Of a stretch of DNA of 64,000 nucleotides, positions 34,260-63,425 are shown in pieces. Below the pieces are notes generated by a model that had not been told where the DNA came from, made no database searches, and saw nothing but the letters and a program-made list of their open reading frames with translations. Origin of the DNA: an uncultured Pelagibacteraceae bacterium (GTDB lineage: Bacteria > Pseudomonadota > Alphaproteobacteria > Pelagibacterales > Pelagibacteraceae); the NCBI GenBank assembly GCA_902556905.1, contig CACDYK010000004.1, forward strand, positions 20,066 through 84,065, given 5' to 3'. How positions within the stretch are numbered: position 1 is the stretch's first letter; the number at the start of each line of letters is the position of its first letter. Both the position numbers and the translations under genes were made by a program.

Positions 34260-35264
34260 ATGAAAACCCCTATTCTTAAAAAACAAATCATAAAAATCTT
34301 TCAAAAATATGGTCTTAGCAAAGATCATGCTTTAATTTCAGCTAATGCATTAATTAATGCAGAATTAGTTGGAGCTTATGGTCATGGTTTATCAAGATTG
34401 AAAATGTATTGTGATCGTATTTCAAAAAAAGTAATTAATCCAAAACCAAAAATTAAAATAAAAAAAATTTCTCAATCTATTTCACACATAGATGCAAATA
34501 ACAGTATTGGTTTTGTTGCAGCAGATCTTGGCATTAAAACAGCAATTAAACATGCTCAAAAAACTGGAATAGGAATGGTTGCTGTAAAGAATAGTGGTCA
34601 TTATGGATTGTCAGGTTATTACGCAGAACAAGCTGTTAAGAAAAATTTAATAGCGATGATTTATACAAATGCACCTCCAGCAGTTGCACCCCATGGCGCT
34701 TTAAAATCTTTGTTTGGAACTAATCCTGTTTGTTTTGGAACCCCTACTGGTTCTAAGATTCCTTTTATATTAGATACATCAATCTCTGTAATAAACAGAG
34801 GTAAAATTAGAGTAGCTGCTAGAAATAATCAAAAAATTCCAGAAGGAGTTGCTTTAGATAAATTAGGCAATCCAACAACTGATGCAAAAAAAGCTTTAGC
34901 AGGTGTTCAGCTTCCAATTGCTGGTTTTAGAGGTTCAGGTCTTGCTTGGATGGTAGATGTTTTAAGTGGAGTTTTAACTGGAGGAAATCATGCAGGAAGA
35001 GTTAAAGATCCTTTTGATGATTTTACTGGTCCACAAAATATAGGACATTTATTTATTACTTTTAAAGCAAATCTATTTCAAAAAAATTATAACCAAAGAA
35101 TTAAAGATAATATTAAAACAATTAAAAAACTTCCTAAGATTAAAGGTGTTAAAGAAATAATGTATCCTGGCCAAAACAAATTTAATCGATATAAACAAAA
35201 TCTTAAAAAAGAAATTTCAATACCTGATATTATTAAAAAAGACTTGGAAACTTTAATAAGTTAA
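34260..35264 (+). CDS. Ldh_2 family oxidoreductase (ComC sulfolactate dehydrogenase / malate DH type 2-like)
   Basis: GHGLSRL..Y, NSGHYG, GTNPV, LDTS, YPG. Confidence 0.8.
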   Translation: MKTPILKKQIIKIFQKYGLSKDHALISANALINAELVGAYGHGLSRLKMYCDRISKKVINPKPKIKIKKISQSISHIDANNSIGFVAADLGIKTAIKHAQKTGIGMVAVKNSGHYGLSGYYAEQAVKKNLIAMIYTNAPPAVAPHGALKSLFGTNPVCFGTPTGSKIPFILDTSISVINRGKIRVAARNNQKIPEGVALDKLGNPTTDAKKALAGVQLPIAGFRGSGLAWMVDVLSGVLTGGNHAGRVKDPFDDFTGPQNIGHLFITFKANLFQKNYNQRIKDNIKTIKKLPKIKGVKEIMYPGQNKFNRYKQNLKKEISIPDIIKKDLETLIS

Positions 35265-35447
35265 AAGCGTCAAAGCACCTAAAGATACACATACTGTAGA
35301 AAAAATAATTGTTCTTTTAACTCTATCTTTTTTCTTTTGCTCTATTAGTCTTTGCTTTAGAACATCCACATTAACTCTTGGTGTCTCAATTGATTGAGAG
35401 GGGGTCCCAACAATGTCAGATGTTCTATTTAAGCTTTCCGTACTCAT
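35253..35447 (-). CDS. small protein with a C-terminal TM anchor
   Basis: 64 aa, VNVDVLKQRL..KKK...IIF then TM helix; divergent from the tandem wHTH gene. Confidence 0.65.
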   Translation of the reverse strand: MSTESLNRTSDIVGTPSQSIETPRVNVDVLKQRLIEQKKKDRVKRTIIFSTVCVSLGALTLLTY

Positions 35448-35491
35448 TCACATAATTAATCATCTAATAGCTTAATAATAAATAGATCTAT

Positions 35492-35538
35492 TGTCCAAAA
35501 TGGGTTGACTATTATTTATGAGCTGTTCATATTGGGTT
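35492..35538 (+). promoter_or_regulatory. sigma70 promoter overlapped by two operator-like repeats
   Basis: TTGACT(35505-35510)-17 bp-CATATT(35528-35533); TGTCCAAAATGGGTT and TGTTCATATTGGGTT overlap the -35 and -10. Confidence 0.65.
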
Positions 35539-35547
35539 TTTTAAATT

Positions 35548-36555
35548 ATGAAAAGTTTGCCCAGTATATCAGATCAAATTGATGAGAAATTAATTAATCA
35601 AATAATTAAAAATAACTTTGCTTTATTAGCTCCCTCTTTTTTTACATTAACCAGCAATTGGTTTATTAGAGCATATGAACATTTCAAAGACATAGATAAG
35701 TTTGTGATAATTATATATTTGATTAATAAAGATCTAATATTCTTTAGAAAGAATGGAGTAAAAATTGACTACGAAACTTTTTACAGAGATAAAAGTATCG
35801 AAATTGATAAAATTAACATTTCAGACATTTCTAAAGATCTAAATATACCTAAAGAAAGCACAAGAAGAAAACTTCTAGATTTAGAAAAAGGTGGTGTAAT
35901 TAAAAAATCTGGAAAAAAAATATTTATTATTAGAGACGCATTCTATGCAGCTAGAGCAACAGATACTCTTAATGAAATTTCAACTATATTACATGAATTT
36001 AATAAAATTTTAAAAAAAGAAAAACTAGTAAATGAAGTTTATTCTGTGAAGGAAATAATTGCATCAATGAAAGAAAATTTTTCTTTCTGTTGGTACCAAT
36101 TTAATAAATTCTGGTTTTCATATATGGGTAGATGGAGAAATGAGCTTAAAGATTTAGAAATTTTGTGTATTGGTATGGTTGTTTTGATTAATGCGGTAAA
36201 AAATAAAGAATTTAATCCAAAAAAAAATCTACACTCATTTCAAAAAGAACTTATGGGATCTGACACAAGAGGGGTAAACGCAATGTCTATTTCTGAAATA
36301 ACTGGTATCCCAAGACCTACTGTTGTTAGAAAATTAAAATATTTGATTGATAAGAAATTTCTTCAGATAGACAAAAAAAACTTAATTACGTTCAATGCTA
36401 AAGAAAGTGCTTTTACTACAACAACTAAAATGGTGGATCAAAATATGCTTGATCTAAGTAATTTTATTTTTAGAGTTTTTAATCAAATAAAGATTATTAA
36501 TGAAAATAAAAAAAAAGATAACAATGAAGACTTTGTGCCTGGCTACTTAAGATAG
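35548..36555 (+). CDS. tandem winged helix-turn-helix DNA-binding protein
   Basis: Two internal repeats ending INISDISKDLNIPKESTRRKL and VNAMSISEITGIPRPTVVRKL. Confidence 0.75.
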   Translation: MKSLPSISDQIDEKLINQIIKNNFALLAPSFFTLTSNWFIRAYEHFKDIDKFVIIIYLINKDLIFFRKNGVKIDYETFYRDKSIEIDKINISDISKDLNIPKESTRRKLLDLEKGGVIKKSGKKIFIIRDAFYAARATDTLNEISTILHEFNKILKKEKLVNEVYSVKEIIASMKENFSFCWYQFNKFWFSYMGRWRNELKDLEILCIGMVVLINAVKNKEFNPKKNLHSFQKELMGSDTRGVNAMSISEITGIPRPTVVRKLKYLIDKKFLQIDKKNLITFNAKESAFTTTTKMVDQNMLDLSNFIFRVFNQIKIINENKKKDNNEDFVPGYLR

Positions 36556-36556
36556 A

Positions 36557-37402
36557 TTAATTAGATTTACGTAAAATATAGATAAAGATAAAACCAGTTA
36601 TATACATGATTAACGCATAAGCAGCAGTTGGTATCATGTAGGCAATATCATCAAAAATTAATGTTGCAACAAAAATTGCCAGTGTTCCATTTTGCAAACC
36701 ACATTCTAATGCAATACATTTTTGTTGAGCTATTCCTGATACAAATTTTTTAGCTACAAAATAAGCTAACGTCATCATTACAATGTTTAAAATTAAAACT
36801 GCTAAACCTGCCTCTGCAAGATAAGTTAAAATATTATCTTTTTCTTCTATCCATATTGCTGCAAAGACAATTACAAATAGCCAACCAGTTATTTTATTAA
36901 TGATATTAATTTTTGATGAAATAAAATTTTCTGCAAAACCTCTAATGGTCATTCCAATAACAACTGGCACTGTAACAACTAATGCCATTTTTAAAGCAAT
37001 TCCAGTCATTGAAATATCAGATGATACAGAAACTCCTAAAATATCTGCAGATGTAATTACTACAAATGGAACAGATACAATACTAATTAAACTAACAACT
37101 GCAGTTAAAGAGATAGATAAAGCAACATCTCCATTAGCAAATTTTGTTAATACATTTGATGTTACGCCTCCTGGTGCGGCCGCTATAATCATTAATCCAA
37201 CAGCTAATGCTTCTGGTAAATTTAATATTAAAGCTATTCCTAAAGCAACAATAGGTAAAATTACTAATTGTGAAAAAAATCCAACAAAAAAATCTTTAGG
37301 AACTCTTAATATTCTTGTGAAATCTTTAATTGAAAGGCCTAGACCTAGCCCTAGCATAATCAATGCCAAACAAATTGGTGCAATTTTAGTTACTATTTCC
37401 AT
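36557..37402 (-). CDS. bile acid:sodium symporter (BASS) family transporter
   Basis: MLGLGLGL, AAPGGVTSN, GDVALS, ECGLQNGTLA. Confidence 0.9.
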   Translation of the reverse strand: MEIVTKIAPICLALIMLGLGLGLSIKDFTRILRVPKDFFVGFFSQLVILPIVALGIALILNLPEALAVGLMIIAAAPGGVTSNVLTKFANGDVALSISLTAVVSLISIVSVPFVVITSADILGVSVSSDISMTGIALKMALVVTVPVVIGMTIRGFAENFISSKINIINKITGWLFVIVFAAIWIEEKDNILTYLAEAGLAVLILNIVMMTLAYFVAKKFVSGIAQQKCIALECGLQNGTLAIFVATLIFDDIAYMIPTAAYALIMYITGFIFIYILRKSN

Positions 37403-37564
37403 AGAGTATTTCGCTATCTATATTTAATTATATTATTTACAGCAAAAATATCAAACTGAATTAAACCTATGATTGTAACTGTTTTATAAGTATTAAAAAA
37501 CTAGTGACAAATATTACTAATTCATAATAACATTTAAAAATAATAACTAGAGAGAGAGGACATA

Positions 37565-38602
37565 ATGAAAAATATAATGAAACTCGCTTCAATTGCTTTA
37601 GTTCTTTTATTTACATTGTTCGGATTAACAAACAAGGCTTCTGCTGCAAAGCTTACTTTGTACTGTAGTGTTGAAATTGATGTTTGTGAAATGCTTGAAC
37701 AAGCTTATGAAAAAGAAACTGGAACAAAAGTTGCAATGACAAGAGCAAGTAGTGGTGAAACATTTGCTAAAATAAAAGCTGAATCATCAAATCCAAAAGG
37801 AGATGTTTGGTTTGGTGGAACAGGTGATCCACACCTTACAGCTGCTCAAGAAAATCTGACTGCGGAATATAAATCATCACATTTTAATGATTTATTGCCA
37901 GCAGCTCAAAATCAAGCAGTAAATGCAAACTATAAATCTGTAGGTATTTATGTTGGTGCATTAGGTTTTGGATACAATAAAGAGCTTTTAGCAAAAAAAG
38001 GTTTACCAGCTCCTAAATCATGGATGGATTTAACTAAACCTATTTATAAAGGTGAAATCCAAATAGCTAATCCAAATTCATCTGGAACTGCTTACACAAC
38101 TTTAGCAACAATTATTCAGATTTTTGGTGAAGATAAAGGTTGGGATTATATGAAAGCACTTCATTTGAATGTGAATACATATACTAAATCTGGTTCTGCT
38201 CCAATTAAAGCAACTGGAAGAGGTGAAAACTTAATAGGTATCTGTTTCCAACACGATGGTGTGAAACAAACTAAAAAAGGTTTACCTGTTGTAACTGTTT
38301 CTCCTGCTGAAGGAACTGGTTACGAAGTTGGATCTATGAGTATTATTGCAGGTGCAAGAAATATGAAGGAAGCTAAAAAGTTTTATGACTGGGCTTTAAG
38401 TCCTGCCATTCAAACTATGGTTTTCACTTCAGGAAAATCTTTGCAGGTGCCATCTAATACAAAAGCACAAGCTGATCCTGATGCTCCAGATTTATCTACT
38501 ATAAACTTGATTGATTATAACTTTAAAGTTTATGGAGATAAGAGTACTAGAGCAGGACTGTTATCTAAGTGGGATAACGACGTATCTGTAATTCCTAGAT
38601 AA
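37565..38602 (+). CDS. ABC substrate-binding protein, AfuA/FbpA-like family
   Basis: Signal peptide, YCS, WFGGTGDPH, NPNSSGTAYT, TKSGSAP, GTGYEVG. Confidence 0.85.
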   Translation: MKNIMKLASIALVLLFTLFGLTNKASAAKLTLYCSVEIDVCEMLEQAYEKETGTKVAMTRASSGETFAKIKAESSNPKGDVWFGGTGDPHLTAAQENLTAEYKSSHFNDLLPAAQNQAVNANYKSVGIYVGALGFGYNKELLAKKGLPAPKSWMDLTKPIYKGEIQIANPNSSGTAYTTLATIIQIFGEDKGWDYMKALHLNVNTYTKSGSAPIKATGRGENLIGICFQHDGVKQTKKGLPVVTVSPAEGTGYEVGSMSIIAGARNMKEAKKFYDWALSPAIQTMVFTSGKSLQVPSNTKAQADPDAPDLSTINLIDYNFKVYGDKSTRAGLLSKWDNDVSVIPR

Positions 38603-38614
38603 TATCAGGAATTA

Positions 38615-40813
38615 ATGAGAGGACTCGTTATCTGTTGGATGCTCATAGGAGGATTGGGTTTCCTAATCTTTCCATGGTATGTAACGGGTGACGGGTTTTT
38701 CTCAATTAACTGGATTAGAGAATATTCTCTAGAAGATTATGGCTCGATATTACCTCAGGTATTTATCAATAATAAATATTGGCTATTACCATTAACTCTT
38801 CCCCTATTTTTTCCTTTAACCACACTTAAATTAAGCCAAAATAATCCTCTTTATTCAAAGATCTTTTTATATTCAGGTTTAATAGGTTTTTTTTATTTTT
38901 TTCTTCAAGGATTTTCAATTGGTATTAGAGGATGGAATTTTGAAATATTTCAATCAATATTTGGTGATGTAGAAAATCAGTTTGGAGTAGGTTCTGGTGC
39001 AGTCTTAACTTGCTGTACTTTTATCTTCTATATTACTCATGGCTTGTCTTCACGAGGATGGTTAAATGGGGATAATTTTATTGTAGGTAGTATTGGAAGT
39101 ATTGTAATATTAGTTTCAACTTTTGTATTTTTTCCAATTTTTAGGATGTTTGGAGTTGCTTTTAAAGGAACTGAGGGCGGTTATGAAATTAGCAATTTTT
39201 CAGACAAAATATTTAATAAAGGAATTTGGGGACTAGATTGTACTTATAGTGATTATGCTTGTGGAGTTTTTTGGAACACAGTTACCATGGGAACACTTAC
39301 TGCATTTTCATCGACAGTTTTAGGTTTAGCTTTTGCACTTTTAATAGCAAGAACAAGTTTCAAGTTTAAAAAAACAATAAGAATATTATCTGTCTTACCA
39401 ATAATCACTCCACCATTTGTAATTGGTTTAGCAATAATAATTTTATTTGGAAGAACAGGAGTAGTAAGCACTTTTCTTGAGTGGGCATTTGATATTGAAC
39501 CTTCAAGATGGATTTATGGTTTACCTGGAATATGGTTTGCCCAAACTCTTGCATTCACCCCTATTGCATTCTTAGTTTTAATTGGTGTTGTTGAAAGTGT
39601 TAGCCCATCAATGGAAGAAGCTTCACAAACATTGAGGGCTTCTAAGTGGCAAGTTTTTAAAACTGTTACTTTACCATTAATGAGGCCAGGAATAGCTAAT
39701 GCATTTTTACTTGGCTTTATTGAAAGCTTGGCAGACTTTGGTAATCCTTTGGTGCTTGGAGCAGAGTACGACGTCTTATCTACTGAAATATTTTTTGCAA
39801 TTGTAGGTGCACAATACGATGAAACAAAAGCAGCTATACTTGCAATGATTTTGTTATCTGTTGTTCTTGTTGTGTTTTATCTTCAAAACCAATGGTTAGG
39901 AAAAAAATCTTATATTTCAATTTCTGGTAAAGGAGACAGTGGAGTTCACCCTGAACTACCAAATAAAACCAAGTGGGTTATATACTCAACCGTACTGCCG
40001 TGGGCATTTATGACATTTATAATTTATGTGATGATTATGTTTGGAGGTTTTGTTGAAATGTGGGGAGTTGATCATAGCTTTACATTAAAACACTACATCG
40101 AAGCATTTAGTATTGATTGGGTCAAAGAAAGGGGATTATTGTGGACTGGTACTGCGTGGAATTCATTTAATACTACATTTACAATAGCAATAATTTCTGC
40201 TTTACCAACTGCTGCAATAGGAATTTTAACTGCGTATTTACTTACAAGGCATAGATTTAGAGGTAAAAACGCTTTTGAATTTGGTACCATGTTAAGTTTT
40301 GCAATTCCTGGAAGTGTGATTGGAGTAAGTTATGTTTTTGCTTTTAATGTTCCTCCTCTTGAATTGACTGGAACAGGAATAATTCTAGTAATTGCTTTTG
40401 TGTTTAGAAATATGCCTGTTGGTGTGAGAGCAGGAATAGCTGCAATGAACCAACTAGATCCTCATTTAGATGAAGCTTCATCAACTTTAAATGCTTCGAG
40501 TTCCCAAACATTTAGAAATATAATTCTTCCATTATTAAAGCCTGCTATTACTGCATCATTAGTCTTTAGTTTTGTAAGAGCAATGACTGCAATAAGTGCT
40601 GTTATCTTCCTTGTCAGTGCAAATTACGATTTAGCTGTTTCATATATTTTAGGAAGATTAGAAAATAATGACTACGGTCTAGCAATAGTATATTCATCTG
40701 CATTAATAGTTGTTATGTTAATTACAATTATGTTAATGCAATTAATAATAGGTAAACGTAAACTAGGTAGAAGAGATCAATCTGCAGGAATTTTACAAGG
40801 AAACTTAGGATAA
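38615..40813 (+). CDS. ABC permease, AfuB/FbpB-like (two permease domains)
   Basis: LPIITPPFV, EEASQTL, ADFGNP, DEASSTL. Confidence 0.85.
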   Translation: MRGLVICWMLIGGLGFLIFPWYVTGDGFFSINWIREYSLEDYGSILPQVFINNKYWLLPLTLPLFFPLTTLKLSQNNPLYSKIFLYSGLIGFFYFFLQGFSIGIRGWNFEIFQSIFGDVENQFGVGSGAVLTCCTFIFYITHGLSSRGWLNGDNFIVGSIGSIVILVSTFVFFPIFRMFGVAFKGTEGGYEISNFSDKIFNKGIWGLDCTYSDYACGVFWNTVTMGTLTAFSSTVLGLAFALLIARTSFKFKKTIRILSVLPIITPPFVIGLAIIILFGRTGVVSTFLEWAFDIEPSRWIYGLPGIWFAQTLAFTPIAFLVLIGVVESVSPSMEEASQTLRASKWQVFKTVTLPLMRPGIANAFLLGFIESLADFGNPLVLGAEYDVLSTEIFFAIVGAQYDETKAAILAMILLSVVLVVFYLQNQWLGKKSYISISGKGDSGVHPELPNKTKWVIYSTVLPWAFMTFIIYVMIMFGGFVEMWGVDHSFTLKHYIEAFSIDWVKERGLLWTGTAWNSFNTTFTIAIISALPTAAIGILTAYLLTRHRFRGKNAFEFGTMLSFAIPGSVIGVSYVFAFNVPPLELTGTGIILVIAFVFRNMPVGVRAGIAAMNQLDPHLDEASSTLNASSSQTFRNIILPLLKPAITASLVFSFVRAMTAISAVIFLVSANYDLAVSYILGRLENNDYGLAIVYSSALIVVMLITIMLMQLIIGKRKLGRRDQSAGILQGNLG

Positions 40814-41868
40814 TGAAAAAAGCTGAAGTTAAATTTGAAAATATTACAAAAAAATTTAATGAGACTGTAGCAGTTGATAATGTAAGTTGCAGTTTTGAAG
40901 CTGGAACTTTAACAACATTACTTGGTCCATCTGGTTGTGGGAAAACTACATCATTAAGAATAATTGCAGGACTAGAAAGAGCTACAAGTGGAAAAATTTT
41001 AGTCGATGATGAGGATGTTACTATACTACCAGCAACTGACAGAGATGTATCAATGGTGTTTCAATCTTATGCATTATTCCCACATATGAGTGTAATTGAA
41101 AATGTTTCATATGGATTAAAAATGATCAATGTAAATAAAGAAGAATATATTGAGAAAGCTTTAGAAACTTTAAAATTAGTAAACTTAGAGGGATATGAGA
41201 ATAGAATGCCGTCTGAGTTATCTGGAGGACAACAACAAAGGGTGGCAGTAGCTAGAGCTATTGTATTAAAACCTAAAGTATTATTATTTGATGAACCTCT
41301 TTCAAATTTAGATGCTAAACTAAGACGACAAGTTCGAGAAGATATTAGAGAAATTCAACAGAAACTTGGGGTAACTACTATATATGTAACTCATGACCAG
41401 GAAGAAGCATTAGCAATTTCTGATAAAGTTATAGTTATGAATAAAGCTGTAATTGCACAAGAAGGTAGTCCAAAAGATCTTTACAACTTTCCTAAAAATA
41501 AGTTTGTTGCTAATTTTATTGGAGATGCAAATGTTGTTAAAGCAGAAATAGTTAACAAACAATCAAATTCATATGAATTAAAACTAGCAGAAATGAACAT
41601 TAAAATTGAAAGTGATAAGGACTTAAAAAACTCAGTTTCTGTAGCCTTAAGACCAGAAAAAATTAGAATTGAAACTACTAATAATGATAACTGTATTCAT
41701 GCATCAGTAAATAACGCTTCTTTTGTTGGTAGCAGTTATCAATATATTTTAAATTCTAAAATAGGAAAATTGTATGTTATTTCGGGAGACACAAGTGATC
41801 CATTCAAAGTTGGTGAAGAGGTATTTTTAAGTTTAGATGAAAAAGACGTTAAAGTGCTTAACGATTAG
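40813..41868 (+). CDS. ABC ATPase, AfuC/FbpC-like with TOBE domain
   Basis: GPSGCGKTT, VFQSYALFPH, LSGGQQQR, DEPLSNLDAKLR. Confidence 0.9.
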   Translation: MKKAEVKFENITKKFNETVAVDNVSCSFEAGTLTTLLGPSGCGKTTSLRIIAGLERATSGKILVDDEDVTILPATDRDVSMVFQSYALFPHMSVIENVSYGLKMINVNKEEYIEKALETLKLVNLEGYENRMPSELSGGQQQRVAVARAIVLKPKVLLFDEPLSNLDAKLRRQVREDIREIQQKLGVTTIYVTHDQEEALAISDKVIVMNKAVIAQEGSPKDLYNFPKNKFVANFIGDANVVKAEIVNKQSNSYELKLAEMNIKIESDKDLKNSVSVALRPEKIRIETTNNDNCIHASVNNASFVGSSYQYILNSKIGKLYVISGDTSDPFKVGEEVFLSLDEKDVKVLND

Positions 41869-43037
41869 AATCCACCTTTTTCGTCGTATGGATTAAACCT
41901 TAAACTTCTTGAAAATTTTCTAATATCATTAACTAGTAGATTTGGTTTTTCTAAAGCTGCAAAGTGCCCACCTGCAGGCATTTCAGTCCATTGCTTAATA
42001 TTAAATATTCTCTCAACATAAGACCTTGGTGGCCATTCAGACATTTCAGCAGGAAATACTGCTGCAGCCGTTGGAATTTCAATTTTTTTGAAATCTTTTG
42101 GAAAAAATCTTCCCCCCTCTTCTCTTCTGCCAAAATAAATCCAACTAGCTGTGTCAAATGTTTTTGTTAAAATATAAACCATTATATTTGCTAACAATGT
42201 ATCTTTTGAATAAACACTTTCTAGTTGGTTGTCTTTTAAATCAGACCAAGAGTACATTTTTTCAATAATCCAAGCAGCAATTCCTACGGGACTATCCATC
42301 ATTCCATAACTCAAAGATTGAGGTTTTGTTGCTTGTTGTGTTCTGTACCCATCTTGCATAACCTGATCTTTATCAAACTTTATTTGCCAATTTTTTTCTT
42401 CATCAGATTGAGGACCATTAGGATGACGCATTGTAAGACAGTTTATATGTATCGCTTTACAAAATTTAAAATGATCGTAGCCTATCCAATTAGCAATAGT
42501 TGCTCCCCAGTCACCCCCTTGAGCCATATAGTCTTTATAACCAAGATTTTCTGTCATAAGTTTATTTAATATTTCAGCCATTTTTCTTGGTCCAATTGGT
42601 TTATTCGGTTTTCCAGAAAAACCAAAACCTGGTAATGAAGGAATTATCACATCAAAAGAGTCTTTTTCATTTCCACCAAATTTTTCAGGATGGGCAAGTT
42701 TTTCAATGATATGTAAAAATTCTACAACTGAACCTGGCCAACCATGCATTAGTAGTAATGGTTTCGAATTTGAACTGGTTCCTTTTTCTTTAATAAAATG
42801 AATATCTATACCATCAACATTGGAAATAAAATTTTGAAATTTATTAATTTCAACTTCATGTTTTTGCCAATCAAATTCATTTATCCAATAATCACACAAC
42901 TCTTTTAAATATGTTTTATTGGTTCCGTGCTCCCAACCTTCTAAATCAGGGATAGAATTCCAAGGATAGTCCTTAATCTTTTGATAAATAGGCGATATCT
43001 CTTTTTCAGTAAAATTAACGTTGAAATCTGTTATCAT
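41865..43037 (-). CDS. epoxide hydrolase (microsomal/EHN type)
   Basis: FDW..HE..IN, HGWPGS, PSLPGFGFS, QGGDWG, GGHFAALE. Confidence 0.92.
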   Translation of the reverse strand: MITDFNVNFTEKEISPIYQKIKDYPWNSIPDLEGWEHGTNKTYLKELCDYWINEFDWQKHEVEINKFQNFISNVDGIDIHFIKEKGTSSNSKPLLLMHGWPGSVVEFLHIIEKLAHPEKFGGNEKDSFDVIIPSLPGFGFSGKPNKPIGPRKMAEILNKLMTENLGYKDYMAQGGDWGATIANWIGYDHFKFCKAIHINCLTMRHPNGPQSDEEKNWQIKFDKDQVMQDGYRTQQATKPQSLSYGMMDSPVGIAAWIIEKMYSWSDLKDNQLESVYSKDTLLANIMVYILTKTFDTASWIYFGRREEGGRFFPKDFKKIEIPTAAAVFPAEMSEWPPRSYVERIFNIKQWTEMPAGGHFAALEKPNLLVNDIRKFSRSLRFNPYDEKGGF

Positions 43038-43109
43038 TTAGTAAAATTTATTATCTATAATTATAAATTGAACTATATACATTTAACAAATTATTTATAA
43101 TTATAACTT

Positions 43110-49743: not shown

Positions 49744-50706
49744 TTAAAGACCTAACCAACCATCAACTGTTGATTTGTTAGCTTCCATCCAAGCTCTTGC
49801 AACATCAGCTGGTTGTTTTTTTTCAACTGAAATAGCATATGCCATAGATGAAACATCATCCGCTGTTAATTGAAAGTTCTTAAAGAATTCAACAATAGCT
49901 GGTGATTTACTTTCTAGAGAAGTACCCCAACCAATTTGAATTTGCTTAAGTGCATCTTTTGAAGCTACATAAGATTTTTTGTACCAGTCAGCATCTTCTT
50001 TAGGTTGTACCATTTTGTATTTAGCTGGATCAAATTTTGGCTCTTCCAACATAACTACATCAGCCATTCCCCAAATTGCATGCGGTTTGTAACAATAGAA
50101 TGCATATCCTTCACCTTTTTTAATAGAGTCAAGAACTCTTGCATTTTTAACTGCTTCAGCTGCTCTGATTGGTTCAATACCAGCATCATATAAACCATAG
50201 TCTCTTAATTTAACTTGGTTAACATTTGCTGAAGCCCAACCATCTGCACCAATCCAGAATTCACCTTTACCATTGCCATCACTATCCATAGCTTTAACAA
50301 CTTCTGGTCTTCCTAGATCTTCAATTGCAGTAATATTCATTTTTTTTGCAAACTGTTGCGAAACACAATAACCTTGGTTTCCTTCATATGGTTTGCTGCT
50401 TAATTTCAAAGTTCCTTTTGGAACTAAATCATTTGTATAAGCTTGTTGGTTTGGTAGCCAGATATCAGGGTGAACTTCAATTTCACCTTTGCTTCTGTCA
50501 ATTGCACCGTAGATTGCAGTATTGTTACCTGGAACAAGCTCTGCTTCTCCACCCATTTTATCAGTAACAACTGCTGCTAATAAATTTGCAATAGCTGTTG
50601 CACCTGTCCAACCTGGATCACCAATTTTTACTTTTTCAGCAAATGATGAAAAAATTGCAAAAAGTGAAATAAGTCCAGCTACAAGTGTAGTTTTTATTAT
50701 TCTCAT
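49744..50706 (-). CDS. proX: betaine-type ABC substrate-binding protein
   Basis: Signal peptide, W residues of the aromatic cage, HPDIWLPNQ, YKPH, A..W...N...V..W C-terminus. Confidence 0.8.
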   Translation of the reverse strand: MRIIKTTLVAGLISLFAIFSSFAEKVKIGDPGWTGATAIANLLAAVVTDKMGGEAELVPGNNTAIYGAIDRSKGEIEVHPDIWLPNQQAYTNDLVPKGTLKLSSKPYEGNQGYCVSQQFAKKMNITAIEDLGRPEVVKAMDSDGNGKGEFWIGADGWASANVNQVKLRDYGLYDAGIEPIRAAEAVKNARVLDSIKKGEGYAFYCYKPHAIWGMADVVMLEEPKFDPAKYKMVQPKEDADWYKKSYVASKDALKQIQIGWGTSLESKSPAIVEFFKNFQLTADDVSSMAYAISVEKKQPADVARAWMEANKSTVDGWLGL

Positions 50707-50730: not shown

Positions 50731-50798
50731 ATTAAGTCTAACGTGAAGGATTAAAGTGAGTCAAAGAATATGACGGCCCAATTTGGGTTTAATGATAT
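50731..50798 (-). promoter_or_regulatory. proX promoter module (copy 1) with upstream palindromic operator
   Basis: Minus strand TTGACT(50764-50759)-18 bp-TAGACT(50740-50735); CCCA-N3-TGGG at 50777-50787; 55/68 identical to 53834-53901 by hand count. Confidence 0.75.
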
Positions 50799-50870
50799 GC
50801 AAATAAATTATATTATTTTTTTTTAATTTTTCAGAAAAAGTATCTAATTATTGTGAATTATTATAAATAA

Positions 50871-51380
50871 TTAGACCTTTTTCACAAAACTAATAGCAGC
50901 ACCAATGGTCGTCAAAAATCCAGCTAATGGCAAGATTGCAACTGCGTATTTCTTTGGCATATAATTCTCTTTGAATTCAATACCTTGGAAACTAATTTCA
51001 AAGTACCACATTTCCCAATACTTCCCTCGCATACCTTCAACAAGTTCAACTCCATAAATTATCAGGACTATACCAATTGCCATAATCATAAGTTTCCAGA
51101 ATTGGCGTATATATAGTGAAATTCTATTTGGTAATTTTTCATAGATTAAATTTAAGGCTATGTGTTCATTATCTCTAGCTGTCAGAGAAAGTGCTAAAAA
51201 CATTAGCCAAATATTACTTAACACTGTTAGCAAATCACCCCAAACAGGAGGGTTGTTGAAAACATATCGCATGATAACGTTATAAAGAGTAAAACCGACC
51301 ATCGCAGCCAAAAATAGTGAACACATAGCTTCCAACATACGATGGATGAAACGATCAAAGTTGTTAAAAAATTTTAACAT
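50871..51380 (-). CDS. dctQ: TRAP transporter small permease
   Basis: VIMRYVFN.P..W..L, HI.L motif, four TM segments. Confidence 0.85.
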   Translation of the reverse strand: MLKFFNNFDRFIHRMLEAMCSLFLAAMVGFTLYNVIMRYVFNNPPVWGDLLTVLSNIWLMFLALSLTARDNEHIALNLIYEKLPNRISLYIRQFWKLMIMAIGIVLIIYGVELVEGMRGKYWEMWYFEISFQGIEFKENYMPKKYAVAILPLAGFLTTIGAAISFVKKV

Positions 51381-51384
51381 ATCA

Positions 51385-52668
51385 TTAATTACTCAATAGG
51401 TTTGGAAGAAACATGGTCAACTCTGGAACAACAAGGATAAAAAATAAAAGTAAAAACAGCCCAACTAAATAAGGAATTAGTGCGACAGCTACCTTTTCTA
51501 AACGCACTTGTGCTATTGTTGCAGCAGTAAAGTATGCGACACCAACAGGTGGTGTTACTGATCCTATTAAGAAGCCAACTATTACAACGATAGCTGCTTG
51601 AACTTCAGGAAAGCCAGCTTGAGCCATAACATTAACTAGGACAGGACCAACTATAATAATGTTTACCGCAGAGTCCATTACCGTTCCAAGAAGAAAAATA
51701 AATAATATCACAGCTAAAATAAAAATAATCGGGGATTCTGTAAGGCTTAAAAGCCATTTTTCAAGATCACCGATTGCACCTAGAGAGGTAAGTAACCAAC
51801 TGAAAGGTCCTGACGCAGCTATGATAATGAAAACCATTGCTGAGTTACGGAATGCTCGACGAAAAGCACCAGTGCAATCTTTCCATTTAATAGTTCGATA
51901 TACGAATACACCTGTAAATAATGCAACCATTGCTGTGATAGCACCAGCCTCAACAACCGATGCAACACCACCCATTACTGAACCTACTAAAACTAAAGGT
52001 ATTAAAAGAGCAAACGAGGATCTATATAATTCTTTACCGGCTCGACGCACCGAAAATGGTTCATCACTGCGCTCGAAGTTATATTTAATTGCAAAGTAAT
52101 GATTGATTATCATGATTACAACGCCAATCAATACACCTGGAATAATCCCAGCCGCAAATAATGCTGCAATCGAAATCTCAGTTGAGTTAGCAAGCACAAT
52201 CATCATGATACTAGGTGGAATTATCCCTCCTATGGTTGAGCTTACGCCTGTAACTGCAGCCGAAAACGCAGCAGGATAGCCAGCTTTTTTCATAGCTGGT
52301 AAAACTAATGCTCCAACTGTAGCTGTATCTGCTACCACGGAACCATTCATCCCAGCAAAAAACATACTCACGAGAACATTAACTTGAGCCAAACCCCCTC
52401 GTATACGTCCAATTAATGCTCTACTCAAAGCCACTAACCGGTCAGTAATCGTTGCACTTGTCATTAATTCACCTGTTAACATAAAGAAAGCAATTGCAGT
52501 TAATGGTACCGAGTCAATAGCGTTAAACATTTGACTTGGAATTAATACAAGCGGTACAGCGTCGGTAAATAGAATATAAACAAATGGTATCAATATTAAG
52601 ATGAAGCCAATGGGAGCACCTAATAAGATTAGAAAAAGTAGTACTACGAGTAGAATGATACTTTCCAT
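51385..52668 (-). CDS. dctM: TRAP transporter large permease
   Basis: FFMLTGELM, GGLAQVNV, GSVVAD, IIPPSI, TPPVG. Confidence 0.92.
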   Translation of the reverse strand: MESIILLVVLLFLILLGAPIGFILILIPFVYILFTDAVPLVLIPSQMFNAIDSVPLTAIAFFMLTGELMTSATITDRLVALSRALIGRIRGGLAQVNVLVSMFFAGMNGSVVADTATVGALVLPAMKKAGYPAAFSAAVTGVSSTIGGIIPPSIMMIVLANSTEISIAALFAAGIIPGVLIGVVIMIINHYFAIKYNFERSDEPFSVRRAGKELYRSSFALLIPLVLVGSVMGGVASVVEAGAITAMVALFTGVFVYRTIKWKDCTGAFRRAFRNSAMVFIIIAASGPFSWLLTSLGAIGDLEKWLLSLTESPIIFILAVILFIFLLGTVMDSAVNIIIVGPVLVNVMAQAGFPEVQAAIVVIVGFLIGSVTPPVGVAYFTAATIAQVRLEKVAVALIPYLVGLFLLLFFILVVPELTMFLPNLLSN

Positions 52669-52697
52669 AATTACTTATATGTTATGAATTGTTTAAG

Positions 52698-52740
52698 GTA
52701 AAGATCATCTAGTTCTTAAATTTAACTAAATGATCTTTAC
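52698..52740. terminator. hairpin between dctP and dctM
   Basis: gtaaagatcat ... atgatctttac inverted repeat with partial inner pairing. Confidence 0.55.
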
Positions 52741-52760
52741 ACAGTTTTTTGTTGAACGAT

Positions 52761-53810
52761 TTACAGAGCCCCAGCTTTCTCTAACTGAGCTACAAATCCA
52801 TCCATTCCTTGTTCTAGAAGTACTCTTTTAGCTACCTCTGGTTCAAAAGTACCTTTGGCATCTAACCAAGCACCAATTGCACCTTCTCTCCATTTAGACA
52901 TTTCCGCTTCAGATGGTACATACCACTCTTTCGCAGATGCTTTAATTGCATCTTCTCCATTCTTGATCCAAGCGTTGTCTAACTGATTTACTTTTTCTCC
53001 ATAAGCATCAGCTGCTTCATGTAACCATTTTCTCTGTTGATCAGACAATGCATTATACTGCTTAGCATCCATTGCTAGAATGTTTCCAGACCACATACCA
53101 CCAATCTCAGTGAAGTATTTTGCAACTTCATGAAGTTTTGCTACGTGCTGCCATGGACTAGCAACATACTGCCCTTCAACTACACCCGACTGTAGGCCTG
53201 AGTATAACTGGCTCCAGTCATAAGGTGTTGGAGTTGCACCCCAGTTTTTAACTAGCATGAACTCAACTGGACTTTTAGTAGTACGCCATTTCAGTCCCTT
53301 CATATCACTAGGAACATGAATTGGTTTTGTTGCATTCCCAAGCTGTCTGAATCCACCACTTGAATATACAGAAAGGCAAATATGACCTGCATTTTCAAGC
53401 GCAAGTTTACATTGTCTTTCAGCTAACCATTCATCTGATATTCTTTTCGCATCTTCAAGTGATTTGAAAATGAAAGGCAAATCAAAAATTGCTAATTCTG
53501 GGCCAAAATTACCATAGTTTGCAGTTGAACTAGTCCATAGAGCTATAAGCCCTTGGTTGGCTTGTTCACCACATTTCTGTTCAGCACATAAACTTTTTTG
53601 ATAATGTGGTTCAACTTTCATTTTACCACCAGAAGCTTTTGCTAATGCCGGTATCAATGCTTGATCTATAGCATCACCGATTGGCATACCCAATCTACCA
53701 GTAGTCCCAAGCTTAAGAGTTACCTCTGCATAGGCTGCTTGAGTAAAAAAAGCAATTGCAACCACCTTAAGTAGTGTCTTACAGATTGTTTTAATGTTTA
53801 ATATTTTCAT
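52761..53810 (-). CDS. dctP: TRAP transporter substrate-binding protein
   Basis: Signal peptide, FDLPFIF, GFRQ, DMKGLKWR, LYSGLQSGVVEG. Confidence 0.88.
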   Translation of the reverse strand: MKILNIKTICKTLLKVVAIAFFTQAAYAEVTLKLGTTGRLGMPIGDAIDQALIPALAKASGGKMKVEPHYQKSLCAEQKCGEQANQGLIALWTSSTANYGNFGPELAIFDLPFIFKSLEDAKRISDEWLAERQCKLALENAGHICLSVYSSGGFRQLGNATKPIHVPSDMKGLKWRTTKSPVEFMLVKNWGATPTPYDWSQLYSGLQSGVVEGQYVASPWQHVAKLHEVAKYFTEIGGMWSGNILAMDAKQYNALSDQQRKWLHEAADAYGEKVNQLDNAWIKNGEDAIKASAKEWYVPSEAEMSKWREGAIGAWLDAKGTFEPEVAKRVLLEQGMDGFVAQLEKAGAL

Positions 53811-53833: not shown

Positions 53834-53901
53834 ATTAAGTCTAACTTAGATCTTTAAAGCGAGTCAAAGGAAATGAGTGCCCACTTTGGGTTTACTGATA
53901 T
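53834..53901 (-). promoter_or_regulatory. dctP promoter module (copy 2) with upstream palindromic operator
   Basis: Minus strand TTGACT(53867-53862)-18 bp-TAGACT(53843-53838); CCCA-N3-TGGG at 53880-53890. Confidence 0.75.
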
Positions 53902-53932
53902 ACTATTAAGTTGATTAGCTAGCCAAATCGTC

Positions 53933-61487: not shown

Positions 61488-62471
61488 ATGAAAAAAAAAA
61501 CATTTTCATTTGATATTATTCTACAGCCAGAATTTCCATCTAACTCTCTAGTCTTAATACAGGAAGCACTAAGAATAACTAATCAATATAGAATTAATGA
61601 AATTTTTAAAAGTAAGCTTATAACAATTAATGCAAAAAAAATTAGATCAAGCAATGGCCAGTGGTGGAAAACAGATGGTGGATTAGAAGCTATTAAAAAT
61701 CCAGATTTTATAATTGTGATAGGTGGGAATTTACCTGTGCAAAAAAAATCAAAAAAATTATTCTCTGCATTAAGAACAGCTCATAAAAATTCATCTAAAA
61801 TAATTGCAGTAGATACTGGAGCTTTTTTAATTGCTGAATCTGGCTTAATTAATAAAGAAACAATTGTTTGCACCCATTGGGAAACTAAAAGTAATTTTAT
61901 AGAAAGATATCCAGATATCAAAATTGTAGACAATATTTATACTATAAACGCTAATGGACTAATGTTTGCTGCGGGTGGGATATCCACCCTAGATTTAATA
62001 CTTGAGTGCATTAAAAAGATAAAAGGTAAAGATTATTCTGACGAAATTGCAAATGCTTTAATTTACAGACCCAGAGAAAAATCAACAACGCAAAAAAATG
62101 AGCGATACAATCTATCAATGGATAATATATGTCAAAAATCAATTTTAATAATGGAAAAAAATATTGAAACACCTATCAAAATAAATGAGATAGCAAAAAA
62201 ACTTAACATATCTTTAAGAACATTAGAGCGTAAATTTTATAAACTGTATAAAATATCTCCAATTAAATTTTATGTTAATTTAAGAATAAAATTTGCTAGA
62301 AATCTTCTTTTTTATGATGATCGCAAAATTAATGAAATATCAAGCATTGCTGGATTTAACTACAACTCTGTATTTATTAATTCGTTCAAAAAAATTTATA
62401 ATAAAACACCTTCTGAATACCGAAAATATTTTAGAAATCAACAATTTGATAAATCTATTCAAAAAAATTAA
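61488..62471 (+). CDS. GlxA-family (DJ-1/GATase plus AraC) transcriptional regulator
   Basis: EALR..N, DTGAFLIAESGL, THWE, AAGG...LDL, C-terminal SLRTLERKF ... GF...F...Y..TPSEYR. Confidence 0.92.
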   Translation: MKKKTFSFDIILQPEFPSNSLVLIQEALRITNQYRINEIFKSKLITINAKKIRSSNGQWWKTDGGLEAIKNPDFIIVIGGNLPVQKKSKKLFSALRTAHKNSSKIIAVDTGAFLIAESGLINKETIVCTHWETKSNFIERYPDIKIVDNIYTINANGLMFAAGGISTLDLILECIKKIKGKDYSDEIANALIYRPREKSTTQKNERYNLSMDNICQKSILIMEKNIETPIKINEIAKKLNISLRTLERKFYKLYKISPIKFYVNLRIKFARNLLFYDDRKINEISSIAGFNYNSVFINSFKKIYNKTPSEYRKYFRNQQFDKSIQKN

Positions 62472-62523: not shown

Positions 62524-63000
62524 TTAATCTTTAAAGTTTAAAATTTCATCTAAAGATTTATTTTTTTTTAGAGATTGTAAAAATTTTGAAAGCGATTTTA
62601 ATTCGTTTAGTGCAAAAGGTTTCATGATTTCTTCAGATTTATTTGTTGGTAAAAGACCAAGTTTGGATGAATGATTTATCAATTTTTTTTTCTTTAAAAT
62701 ATAAATTTTTCTTCTAACAGTTTCTTTTGGTAAATTCAAAATCGATGCGACAGCAAAAATTGTTAATTTCCTTGAAGAGTAAAATTCTTCTACTTTAGAT
62801 TTTCTTATGTTCTCCCACACATCATCCCAATTTTTTCCCAATTTGGTATTGTTTTTTATATAGTGGGAACCCATTACATTAAGTATCATAAATGAGTCGT
62901 AATCAACTCCTATCATAGCTTTTGATTGTTGGAATTGCTCAGTTCGAAAATTAATTAAATGATATAAAGTTTCACTATAAGCTTCTAGTTTTTTTTTCAC
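62524..63000 (-). CDS. single-domain winged helix protein, same family as 35548..36555
   Basis: LTIFAVASILNLPKETVRRKI..L.KK.LI. Confidence 0.7.
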   Translation of the reverse strand: MKKKLEAYSETLYHLINFRTEQFQQSKAMIGVDYDSFMILNVMGSHYIKNNTKLGKNWDDVWENIRKSKVEEFYSSRKLTIFAVASILNLPKETVRRKIYILKKKKLINHSSKLGLLPTNKSEEIMKPFALNELKSLSKFLQSLKKNKSLDEILNFKD

Positions 63001-63014
63001 AGAATGAGCTTAAC

Positions 63015-63425
63015 TCATTCTGGGTTACTTGTAAGTGTTTTAATTTCTAAAATATTTTCGTTAGGGTCTTTTACAAAGAAAGTTTCTTGCTCGTATTTAG
63101 TGCCCTTAAATCTAAGATATGGTTCATCATAGTATTTAGTACCATTATCTTTTAATCTTTGCTTAAGAGCATCAAAATCTTTTCTTGAAAGGTGGACACC
63201 AAAATGAGGTACAGACACATTTCCCATATCAACATCATGTCTTTCACTATCTAATTTATGATCACTTGCATGAAGAGTTAATTCATTTCCCCAAAAATCA
63301 ACATCTGCCCATTCTTGAGCAGAATTATCTAATCTACATCCTAGTGCTTCATTATAAAATTTTTTTGCAGTCTCTAAATCTCCACATGGCACAGCCAAAT
63401 GAAAACAGTTCGTATTTTTGTACAT
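63015..63425 (-). CDS. VOC/glyoxalase family protein
   Basis: FHLAVP..DL...K.FY, DFWGN.L..H, VPHFG, EQ.T.F..DP..N.LE.K. Confidence 0.88.
   Translation of the reverse strand: MYKNTNCFHLAVPCGDLETAKKFYNEALGCRLDNSAQEWADVDFWGNELTLHASDHKLDSERHDVDMGNVSVPHFGVHLSRKDFDALKQRLKDNGTKYYDEPYLRFKGTKYEQETFFVKDPNENILEIKTLTSNPE

What the first reader, a model, noticed from the sequence alone, without database searches (positions are those of the whole stretch)
35492..36555. Unrecognised operator (T/G)GYYCA-N3-TGGGTT and a tandem winged-helix protein as its candidate regulator
Seen: four intergenic copies in the same orientation: TGTCCAAAATGGGTT (35492-35506), TGTTCATATTGGGTT (35524-35538), GGCCCAATTTGGGTT (50775-50789) and TGCCCACTTTGGGTT (53878-53892). 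The first two overlap the -35 (TTGACT) and -10 (CATATT) of the tandem-wHTH gene's own promoter, which is autorepression geometry. The other two sit exactly 12 bp upstream of the -35 of proX and dctP, which is activator geometry. GC-rich motifs like this are rare in these AT-rich spacers. Inference: the uncharacterised two-HTH protein represses itself and controls osmolyte/organic-acid uptake genes. A single chain with two non-identical HTHs would fit the imperfect palindrome with one invariant half (TGGGTT).
Basis: partly seen in the sequence, partly recalled or inferred. Interest (0 to 1): 0.8.

Follow-up and report, generated by a model that had tools for sequence, protein, structure and literature searches.

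The report
SAR11 fused MarR-like regulator and operator
The 15-bp motif is very likely the DNA-binding site of an uncharacterised, SAR11-specific regulator built from two fused MarR-like halves. The regulator sits on its own promoter in dozens of genomes, while its link to the osmolyte and organic-acid uptake genes is real but confined to a narrow lineage, and the protein that binds there is still unidentified.

Summary
**Observation: confirmed.**
- The four copies are at the stated coordinates (0.06 expected by chance in the window).
- The 1.28-Mb, 29% GC, SAR11-type genome has six strict matches, all intergenic.

**Autoregulation: strongly supported.**
- Of 25 homologue loci in the genus (31–76% protein identity), 18 carry two copies of GTYCA-N3-TGGGTY exactly 32 bp apart at the gene's promoter; one more has 31 bp.
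- The protein is an internal duplication of a ~160-aa MarR-like unit, a covalent pseudo-dimer. Each half has a nearly invariant recognition helix. This fits the asymmetric site.

**New here.**
- The operator pair also lies at a near-fixed distance (about −60 and −92) from a conserved divergent gene for a 64-aa tail-anchored membrane protein. That gene is the most conserved target.

**proX/dctP part: only partly supported.**
- The module "operator, 10 bp (not 12), TTGACT" is under constraint. It occurs in 8 of 301 genomes, before dctP, proX and an aldehyde dehydrogenase.
- Most proX/dctP orthologues lack it.
- A 158-aa unfused paralogue (62524–63000) is an equally possible binder.
- Whether binding activates or represses is not shown.

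Two unchecked notes from this scan describe the same protein family in other genomes. I found no literature on it.

The parts
35492..35506 (+). Operator O1 (TGTCCAAAATGGGTT). It abuts and overlaps the -35 of the regulator's promoter. Seen from the divergent small gene it is the proximal site, starting 59-60 nt from that gene's ATG.
35524..35538 (+). Operator O2 (TGTTCATATTGGGTT), 32 bp from O1. It covers the -10 (CATATT) of the regulator's promoter.
35505..35533 (+). Predicted sigma-70-type promoter of the regulator gene: TTGACT, 17 nt, CATATT.
   Evidence: the sequence
35548..36555 (+). 335-aa regulator made of two fused MarR-like wHTH units. HTH1 is IPKESTRRK (about residues 100-108) and HTH2 is IPRPTVVRK (about 254-262).
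35253..35447 (-). Divergent gene for a 64-aa protein: polar N-terminus, RVNVDVLKQRL motif, Lys-rich stretch, C-terminal transmembrane helix. Conserved partner and target of the regulator.
50775..50789 (-). Cassette operator upstream of proX. On the gene strand it reads AACCCAAATTGGGCC, then 10 nt, then TTGACT (50759-50764), then 18 nt, then TAGACT (50735-50740).
53878..53892 (-). Cassette operator upstream of dctP. On the gene strand it reads AACCCAAAGTGGGCA, then 10 nt, then TTGACT (53862-53867), then 18 nt, then TAGACT (53838-53843).
49744..50706 (-). proX-type (OpuAC) binding protein, first gene of an ABC transporter operon. Putative lineage-specific target.
50871..53810 (-). dctP-dctM-dctQ TRAP transporter operon. 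Putative lineage-specific target.
62524..63000 (-). 158-aa unfused (single-unit) paralogue of the regulator family, with HTH LNLPKETVRRK. Alternative candidate binder of the cassette operators.

Best explanation
The motif is the operator of a Pelagibacterales-specific family of MarR-like winged-helix regulators. The 335-aa protein is a fusion of two homologous ~160-aa units, a covalent pseudo-dimer. It most likely binds one asymmetric 15-bp site per molecule, with one recognition helix on TGGGT and the other on TGRAC (the reverse of GTYCA). Two such sites lie 32 bp (three helical turns) apart in the ~100-bp bidirectional control region between the regulator gene and a divergent gene for a 64-aa tail-anchored membrane protein. 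O1 touches the -35 and O2 covers the -10 of the regulator's promoter, so bound protein should shut off its own transcription (inferred from geometry). The same pair sits at near-fixed positions from the small gene's start codon, so the small gene is the conserved primary target; whether it is switched on or off is unknown. In this strain's narrow lineage, the operator has also been placed in front of proX, dctPQM and ALDH-DUF779, and in degenerate form before a DAO/GS-like operon. There it has the same orientation and the same 10-bp distance from a -35 as at the small gene. It is centred near -54, upstream of the core promoter. A family member bound there would either recruit RNA polymerase (activation) or block upstream-element contacts (repression). 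Whether the fused protein or its 158-aa unfused paralogue binds these added sites is unresolved; motif similarity slightly favours the fused protein.
For: Shown: (1) Site pairs with exact 32-bp spacing occur upstream of homologues in 18 of 25 loci (one more at 31 bp), although the proteins diverge to 31% identity. A related site is present even in the sister family. (2) In a complete genome (G013) and in G024 and G006, the strict motif occurs only at this promoter. (3) Internal duplication: hhalign of the N half against the C half gives 97.7% probability, E 1.6e-12, over 148 columns. The invariant residues cluster in the two recognition helices. (4) A confident model (pLDDT 86, pTM 0.85) has almost only MarR-family proteins as structural neighbours (Z 5-6.7). 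The two-domain protein SarS aligns across both halves. (5) The small gene is adjacent in 25 of 38 fused-protein loci and 0 of 29 unfused-paralogue loci. Operators lie at about -60 and -92 from its ATG even where the gene order is rearranged. (6) The cassette gives 11 hits in 8 of 301 genomes against 1 hit for the reversed control. Operator, -35 and -10 are conserved while the spacer diverges. (7) In G219, G246 and G100 the dctP cassette operator equals the auto-site consensus GTCCA-N3-TGGGTT, and all three genomes carry the fused protein. (8) The independent PWM picks the cassette and DAO sites as the top intergenic hits.
Against: There is no binding, TSS or expression data; repression and activation are inferred from geometry alone. 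Full operators are not conserved upstream of most proX/dctP orthologues, and the DAO site exists only in G000 and its close relative G026. The cassette operators in this genome are more symmetric (GCCCA-N3-TGGGT) than the auto-sites, which would suit a homodimer of the unfused paralogue. That paralogue is found in 6 of the 8 cassette-bearing genomes, against 4 of 8 for the fused protein, although at least two of the fused-protein 'absences' are assembly gaps. The structural matches are middling (Z<8), and the Pfam MarR models are below threshold.
Confidence: 0.7

Rival explanations
1. Division of labour between paralogues. The fused protein controls only its own bidirectional promoter. The more symmetric cassette operators at proX, dctP and ALDH are bound by a homodimer of the 158-aa unfused paralogue (62524-63000).
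For: The paralogue is homologous to each half of the fused protein (hhalign 93.7%) and has the HTH1-type helix LPKETVRRK. It lies in the same ~20-kb island as the three cassettes. It is rare in the genus (12/300 at >=43% identity) yet present in 5 of the 7 other cassette genomes. RCCCA-N3-TGGGY occurs only three times in this genome, two of them at the proX and dctP sites. Distant unfused paralogues have arrays of similar, roughly symmetric boxes upstream.
Against: G246 has the cassette and the fused protein, but no unfused paralogue was found there. The dctP cassettes in G219, G246 and G100 carry the exact fused-protein consensus. Genomes with 62-73% identical paralogues show no excess of cassette-type sites. 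No operator could be defined at the paralogue's own promoter. Co-occurrence may only reflect linkage within one island.
Confidence: 0.3
2. The copies at proX, dctP, ALDH and DAO are non-functional passengers of promoter duplication or recombination in one lineage. Only the auto-sites are functional.
For: The module is confined to close relatives whose proteins are 96-99% identical. The DAO site sits in a lineage-specific ~100-bp longer spacer.
Against: Among seven dctP promoters the operator, -35 and -10 columns are invariant while the -35/-10 spacer and flanks have diverged. The ALDH promoter shares only the operator-to--35 segment, not the rest. Operator-to--35 spacing is identical in all 11 copies, but the search pattern required that spacing.
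Confidence: 0.12
3. The motif is not a site for this family. It is an RNA hairpin (CCCA-N3-TGGG), a site for another regulator such as the adjacent GbdR-like AraC protein, or a set of iterons for a Rep-like tandem winged-helix initiator.
For: There is a weak Pfam hit to Phage_rep_O (19 bits, below its cut-off). The auto-sites are direct repeats. A GbdR-like regulator lies at 61488-62471, and proX is an osmolyte-type binding protein.
Against: No Rfam family matches, and the local folds are no better than shuffles (z -0.2 to -0.5). The sites lie upstream of or over promoters, not in transcripts. The motif travels with the fused-protein gene across two families of the order regardless of neighbouring genes. 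There are only two repeats, the fold neighbours are MarR proteins rather than RepA-type proteins, and the gene is chromosomal and often single-copy.
Confidence: 0.04

Closest known systems
SarS / SarU / SarY, the two-domain members of the staphylococcal SarA (MarR-superfamily) regulators
   Same: A single polypeptide holds two homologous wHTH units that form an intramolecular pseudo-dimer. SarS (1p4x) is the top Foldseek hit and aligns over 192 residues spanning both halves.
   Different: No detectable sequence homology (Foldseek E 0.03, 12-13% identity; no PDB sequence hit). Each unit here is larger (~160 aa against ~125 aa). The lineage is different (SAR11, Alphaproteobacteria). Here there is a defined asymmetric 15-bp operator in a 32-bp-spaced pair, and a conserved small membrane-protein partner.
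Classical MarR-family repressors (MarR, SlyA, OhrR, MepR and others)
   Same: The fold of each half (VIA Z 5-6.7). The gene is divergent from its target. Two (pseudo)palindromic operators in the shared intergenic region overlap the -35 and -10. From general knowledge of the family, some members such as SlyA and RovA also act positively from upstream sites.
   Different: MarR proteins are non-covalent homodimers that bind symmetric sites. The Pfam MarR models are below threshold here. Any ligand is unknown.
TrmB family (PF01978)
   Same: The second HTH (residues 243-284) scores above the Pfam gathering threshold for the TrmB HTH domain (30.8 against 25.6 bits).
   Different: No TrmB C-terminal sugar-binding domain was detected. 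The match covers only the ~40-residue HTH core, so it indicates the wHTH class and not family membership.

Membership tests
MarR family | Sequence match to the Pfam MarR / MarR_2 models above the gathering score | tested here: not met
   MarR_2 scores 19.2 bits against a cut-off of 27. NCBIfam has no family for it.
MarR family | MarR fold: a wHTH flanked by N- and C-terminal helices that form the dimer interface | tested here: inconclusive
   Nearly all of the top 50 VIA-align hits are MarR proteins, but Z is only 5-6.7, below the level the tool calls safe. The model itself is confident (pLDDT 86).
MarR family | Binds (pseudo)palindromic operators that overlap its own or a divergent promoter | tested here: met
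   Computationally only: conserved site pairs over the -35 and -10 in 19 of 25 loci. No binding assay was done.
MarR family | DNA binding released by a small-molecule ligand or by oxidation | not testable with these tools
   No ligand can be inferred. No conserved Cys stands out among the invariant columns.
Two-domain SarA-type regulators (SarS-like) | Two homologous wHTH units in one chain | tested here: met
   hhalign of the N half against the C half: 97.7%, E 1.6e-12, 148 columns.
Two-domain SarA-type regulators (SarS-like) | Sequence homology to the SarA family | tested here: not met
   No SarA-family hit in Pfam or in the PDB sequence search. Foldseek to SarS gives E 0.03 at 13% identity.
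TrmB family | N-terminal TrmB HTH plus the C-terminal TrmB effector domain | tested here: not met
   Only the HTH core matches, and it lies in the second half of the protein. No TrmB C-terminal domain hit was found.
Iteron-binding Rep initiators (RepA/RepE/pi type) | WH1-WH2 fold, an array of iterons next to an AT-rich unwinding region, and a plasmid or phage context | tested here: inconclusive
   Only a sub-threshold Phage_rep_O hit. No Rep protein appears among the listed fold neighbours. There are two repeats only, and the context is chromosomal. Nothing supports this reading.

The most novel reading that the evidence does not exclude
The fused regulator and the 64-aa tail-anchored membrane protein form a minimal signalling pair peculiar to SAR11. 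The small protein would tether or release the regulator at the membrane, possibly in response to transporter or osmotic status. One operator pair would then act as a switch that represses the regulator gene and activates the small gene from about -53. In some lineages the same operator/-35 module has been copied in front of osmolyte, organic-acid and aldehyde genes, building a new regulon in an organism known for having almost no transcriptional regulation. Fused and unfused paralogues would compete for overlapping sites.
Probability: 0.15. Interest if true: 0.8.

Novelty: new variant of a known kind. Interest (0 to 1): 0.6.

Why it matters
SAR11 bacteria dominate ocean surface waters and, from general knowledge, are thought to have very few transcription factors and little transcriptional control. 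This finding gives a lineage-specific, very abundant regulator family (over 4000 database relatives, all unnamed) with a precisely predicted operator. It also gives a conserved small-protein partner and, in one lineage, a traceable case of regulon growth by copying an operator/-35 module in front of transporter and aldehyde-oxidation genes. It yields direct predictions that can be tested in vitro (EMSA or DAP-seq with two proteins and a 15-bp site) and a handle on how uptake of osmolytes and organic acids might be regulated in SAR11. It is not a new principle: autoregulated MarR-like repressors and fused pseudo-dimers are already known.

Tried and rejected
- **RNA element.** No Rfam family matches at the sites (the only hit in the window is a tRNA). 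Local folds are no better than shuffled sequence.
- **Site at 63012 as an auto-operator of the 158-aa paralogue.** It lies in the codons for the C-terminus (…NPE*) of the upstream VOC-family gene and is not conserved in orthologues. No operator-like box or convincing palindrome lies upstream of that two-gene unit.
- **Co-occurrence as a test between the fused protein and its unfused paralogue.** Inconclusive. G148's contig ends at window position 43068, and G026's contig C31 begins inside the SBF gene, so their 'missing' fused genes are assembly gaps.
- **SBF transporter promoter in this genome.** No site there.
- **Conservation of the DAO-operon site.** It is absent from 18 other genomes' homologous spacers.
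- **Cassette-type sites in genomes with 62-73% identical unfused paralogues.** No excess over the control pattern.
- **A fixed -10 hexamer downstream of the small gene's proximal operator.** No single sharp peak. Only a conserved 'TGATT + A/T-rich hexamer' just before the ATG.
- **Names or literature.** Four full-text searches found no description of this family or motif; the MarR in PMC12753301 is phage-encoded. Pfam, NCBIfam, the PDB sequence search and the ESM Atlas give only generic HTH labels or 'hypothetical protein'.
- **ESM Atlas for the small protein.** The server could not be reached.

Full report
**The observation**

The four 15-mers matching KGYYCANNNTGGGTT are at 35492, 35524, 50775 and 53878 on the + strand. 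Dinucleotide shuffles of the window give 0.06 matches on average and never four.

The window is part of a 1.28-Mb, 29% GC, 42-contig genome. An earlier follow-up in this scan, and my own relatives search, place it in a SAR11-type lineage.

Genome-wide there are six strict matches, all intergenic. The two extra ones are:
- One lies 53 bp upstream of an aldehyde dehydrogenase + DUF779 pair, at contig C4:90458, about 6 kb beyond the window's end.
- The other lies 125 bp upstream of a DAO-oxidoreductase / glutamine-synthetase-like pair on contig C2.

proX (49744-50706) and the dctPQM genes (50871-53810) are on the minus strand. Relative to transcription, their sites therefore read AACCCA-N3-TGGGC.

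The gap between the 15-mer and the TTGACT -35 is 10 bp, not 12.

**Who binds it: phylogenetic footprinting at the regulator gene**

The 335-aa protein has homologues in 25 of 36 sampled genomes of the genus, at 31-76% identity. Weaker ones (about 26% identity) occur in 13 of 24 genomes of the sister family.

I took the DNA upstream of each homologue:
- 18 of 25 loci have two copies of GTYCA-N3-TGGGTY exactly 32 bp apart.
- One more locus has 31-bp spacing.
- In another the second copy runs into the start codon.

In the G000-like clade, O1 abuts TTGACT and O2 covers CATATT. The promoter scan independently calls this pair (TTGACT-17-CATATT, 35505-35533). In a more distant clade, a TTGACA sits between the two sites and O2 fills the spacer and the -10.

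The sister-family homologues carry T(G/A)CCCAATATGGGTTT just upstream.

In the complete genome G013 and in G024 and G006, the strict pattern GYYCANNNTGGGTY occurs only at this promoter.

A PWM built solely from other genomes' sites ranks the two auto-sites, the DAO site and the ALDH site as the four best hits in this genome. The proX and dctP sites rank 11th and 12th. Six of the top 12 hits are intergenic, against an intergenic fraction of about 8% (P = 1.6e-4).

This is strong comparative evidence that the protein recognises the motif and regulates itself. That the regulation is negative is inferred from the overlap with the -35 and -10.

**What the protein is**

Pfam gives only short HTH matches: TrmB HTH at residues 243-284, above threshold, and HTH_Crp_2 at 88-130, below threshold. 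NCBIfam, the PDB sequence search and the ESM Atlas give nothing specific.

Over 4000 database relatives carry only labels such as 'hypothetical' or 'ArsR family'.

An alignment of 20 diverse members shows that the invariant residues cluster in two similar helices: IPKETxRRK and IPR(A/P)TVxRK.

Profile-profile comparison of the N-terminal and C-terminal halves gives 97.7% probability, E 1.6e-12, over 148 columns. The protein is therefore an internal duplication of a ~160-aa unit.

The AlphaFold model is confident (pLDDT 86, pTM 0.85). Its structural neighbours are almost exclusively MarR-family proteins, one per half (Z 5-6.7). The best Foldseek hit is SarS, the staphylococcal two-domain SarA/MarR-type protein, which aligns across both halves. 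These scores are middling, so I call the fold MarR-like and do not claim membership.

A class-wide sample of 200 genomes found no full-length relative outside the window's own family.

A covalent pseudo-dimer with two diverged recognition helices explains the asymmetric site.

Divergent from the regulator gene (35253-35447, minus strand) is a 64-aa ORF. It has a polar N-terminus, an RVNVDVLKQRL motif, a Lys-rich stretch and a C-terminal transmembrane helix.
- It matches no Pfam or NCBIfam family.
- It has 2937 database relatives, many at 91-100% identity, so it is a real gene and better conserved than the regulator.
- A gene of this type is adjacent in 25 of 38 fused-protein loci and in 0 of 29 loci of the unfused paralogue.

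The operator pair lies at about -60 and -92 from its ATG in at least 15 loci. This includes a subfamily (L013, L015) in which the small gene is convergent with the regulator gene and has its own operators.

The small gene is therefore the most conserved target. A conserved 'TGATT + A/T-rich hexamer' lies just before its ATG, and the region 10 nt downstream of the operator has only weak -35-like sequences. This suggests an extended -10 promoter and a very short leader. That would centre the proximal operator near -53. This is a tentative reading.

An SBF-family transporter gene is a recurrent neighbour. In this genome its promoter has no site.

**The proX/dctP part**

In this genome the proX, dctP and ALDH promoters share a module: AAACCCAAAkTGrGC, then 10 nt containing TCAT, then CTTTGACT, then an 18-nt spacer and a -10.

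Searching 301 genomes of the genus for operator-N10-TTTGAC (one mismatch allowed) gave 11 hits in 8 genomes, against one hit for the reversed control. The hits precede dctP (7), proX (2) and ALDH (2).

Across the seven dctP promoters, the operator, -35 and -10 are invariant while the spacer and flanks have diverged. That is a footprint of selection.

The module is narrow in distribution, however:
- proX and dctP orthologues exist in only 8-9 of 61 sampled genomes.
- Most of them have other upstream boxes. dctP keeps only the AACCCA half-site. proX has CCATTTTAGGCTT about 44 bp upstream of its -35.
- The DAO-operon site exists only in G000 and its 97%-identical relative G026, inside a spacer about 100 bp longer than in 18 other genomes.

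The extended regulon is therefore a recent, lineage-specific acquisition.

In orientation and in its 10-bp distance to the -35 position, the cassette copies the small gene's promoter, not the regulator's own promoter.

**Which family member binds the cassette?**

hhalign against the family profile gives 93.7% probability, and its HTH is LNLPKETVRRK.

It is uncommon in the genus: 32 of 300 genomes at E<=1e-10, and 12 of 300 at >=43% identity.

| Cassette-bearing genomes (8) | Unfused paralogue found | Fused protein found |
|---|---|---|
| Count | 6 | 4 |

At least two 'absences' of the fused gene are assembly gaps:
- G148's contig is 97-98% identical to the window and ends at window position 43068.
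- G026's contig C31 begins inside the SBF gene.

Points for the unfused paralogue:
- The cassette operators here are nearly symmetric (GCCCA-N3-TGGGT).
- RCCCA-N3-TGGGY occurs only three times in the genome, two of them these sites.

Points for the fused protein:
- The orthologous dctP operators in G219, G246 and G100 read GTCCA-N3-TGGGTT, the exact auto-site consensus.
- Those three genomes all carry the fused protein.
- The DAO site is also of the auto-site type.
- The independent PWM finds all of these sites.

I put about 55-60% on the fused protein, about 30% on the paralogue, and the rest on non-function or something else.

Distant unfused paralogues have arrays of related boxes upstream (ACYMA-N3-TGRGTT, or TACCTA-N3-TAGGTT, with about a 21-bp period). 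The whole family therefore seems to read this class of motif.

**Activator or repressor at the cassette?**

The operator is centred about 54 bp upstream of the predicted start, outside the core promoter. This fits class-I-type activation. It equally fits repression by blocking upstream-element contacts. Nothing available here decides between the two.

**Rejected alternatives**

- RNA element: no Rfam family, and folds no better than shuffles.
- Rep/iteron reading: only a sub-threshold Pfam hit, two repeats, a chromosomal gene and MarR-like neighbours.
- A PWM hit at 63012 upstream of the paralogue: it is the coding sequence of the upstream gene's C-terminus and is not conserved.

**Prior knowledge**

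Four full-text searches found no description of the family or motif.

Two unchecked first-stage notes of this scan, on other genomes, describe the same protein as a covalent pseudo-dimer of MarR-like units facing two direct repeats three helical turns apart. My tests agree with them. A note on this window recorded the duplicated promoter module around the TRAP cassette.

**Verdict**

The operator and the autoregulated fused MarR-like regulator are real and well supported. The osmolyte and organic-acid regulon is plausible, but it is specific to one lineage, and neither the direction of regulation nor the binding protein is known. This is a new, SAR11-specific variant of a known kind of regulator. 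It is of solid interest for SAR11 biology but is not a new principle.

Noticed in passing
window 50790-50802 and 53893-53905 (minus-strand view); also L035-L040: A second conserved element, TTGCATATCAG (variants GTATATCAG, GCATAGCAG), lies immediately upstream of the cassette operator at proX and dctP in all cassette genomes. It also lies just downstream of the different box (CCATTTTAGGCTT) in the proX promoters of G004, G005, G072 and G076. It may be the site of another factor. In this genome the strict form is rare: 8 hits, 2 of them intergenic.
   Followed up: partly
L036, L038, L039, L040 (proX upstream in G005, G076, G004, G072): These proX orthologues carry NNNCCATTTTAGGCTT about 44 bp upstream of their -35, in place of the TGGGTT operator. 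The box resembles the TACCTATTTTAGGTT boxes upstream of distant unfused paralogues. Different family members may control proX in different lineages.
   Followed up: no
L096-L112 (distant unfused paralogues, 27-37% identity): Three or four related boxes (ACCCA/ACTAA-N3-TGAGT/TGGGT, or TACCTA-N3-TAGGTT) with about a 21-bp period lie directly upstream of these ~150-175-aa genes. This suggests cooperative autoregulation by arrays.
   Followed up: no
L001:4669-6414 (contig C4:88668-90413, outside the window): The aldehyde dehydrogenase ORF is 581 aa, with a ~100-aa Lys-rich N-terminal extension before the Aldedh domain (MAIKKNKVAKSKTKKKK…). Its ATG lies only 4 nt after the -10-like TAAATT, so the mRNA may be leaderless. 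G026 has the same form.
   Followed up: no
window about 35000-43000 in relatives G026 and G148: Two closely related MAGs both have assembly breaks at or next to the regulator locus. G148's contig ends at window position 43068, and G026's contig C31 starts inside the SBF gene. The region may be hypervariable in the population.
   Followed up: partly
window 63000-63027: An inverted repeat, CAGAATGAG-N5-CTCATTCTG, spans the stop codon of the VOC/glyoxalase-family gene (63015-63425) and ends at the GTG start of the 158-aa paralogue. Only 14 bp separate the two genes, so they are probably co-transcribed, and the hairpin could affect translation of the paralogue.
   Followed up: no
L064 (G066), site at 601-616; L013, L015, L017: An SBF-family (bile acid:Na+ symporter-like) transporter gene neighbours the fused regulator in several subfamilies. 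In G066 an operator-like site (AGTTCATTTTGAGTTT) ends 15 bp before the transporter's ATG. The window's own SBF gene (36557-37402) has no site.
   Followed up: partly
G288 (L125, L126): One complete genome carries two full-length fused paralogues at distant loci. One of them has the small gene and a perfect operator pair.
   Followed up: no
window 61488-62471: A GbdR/FtrA-like AraC-family regulator (NCBIfam GbdR model, 164 bits, below its cut-off) is convergent with the 158-aa paralogue. G026 has the same arrangement.
   Followed up: no
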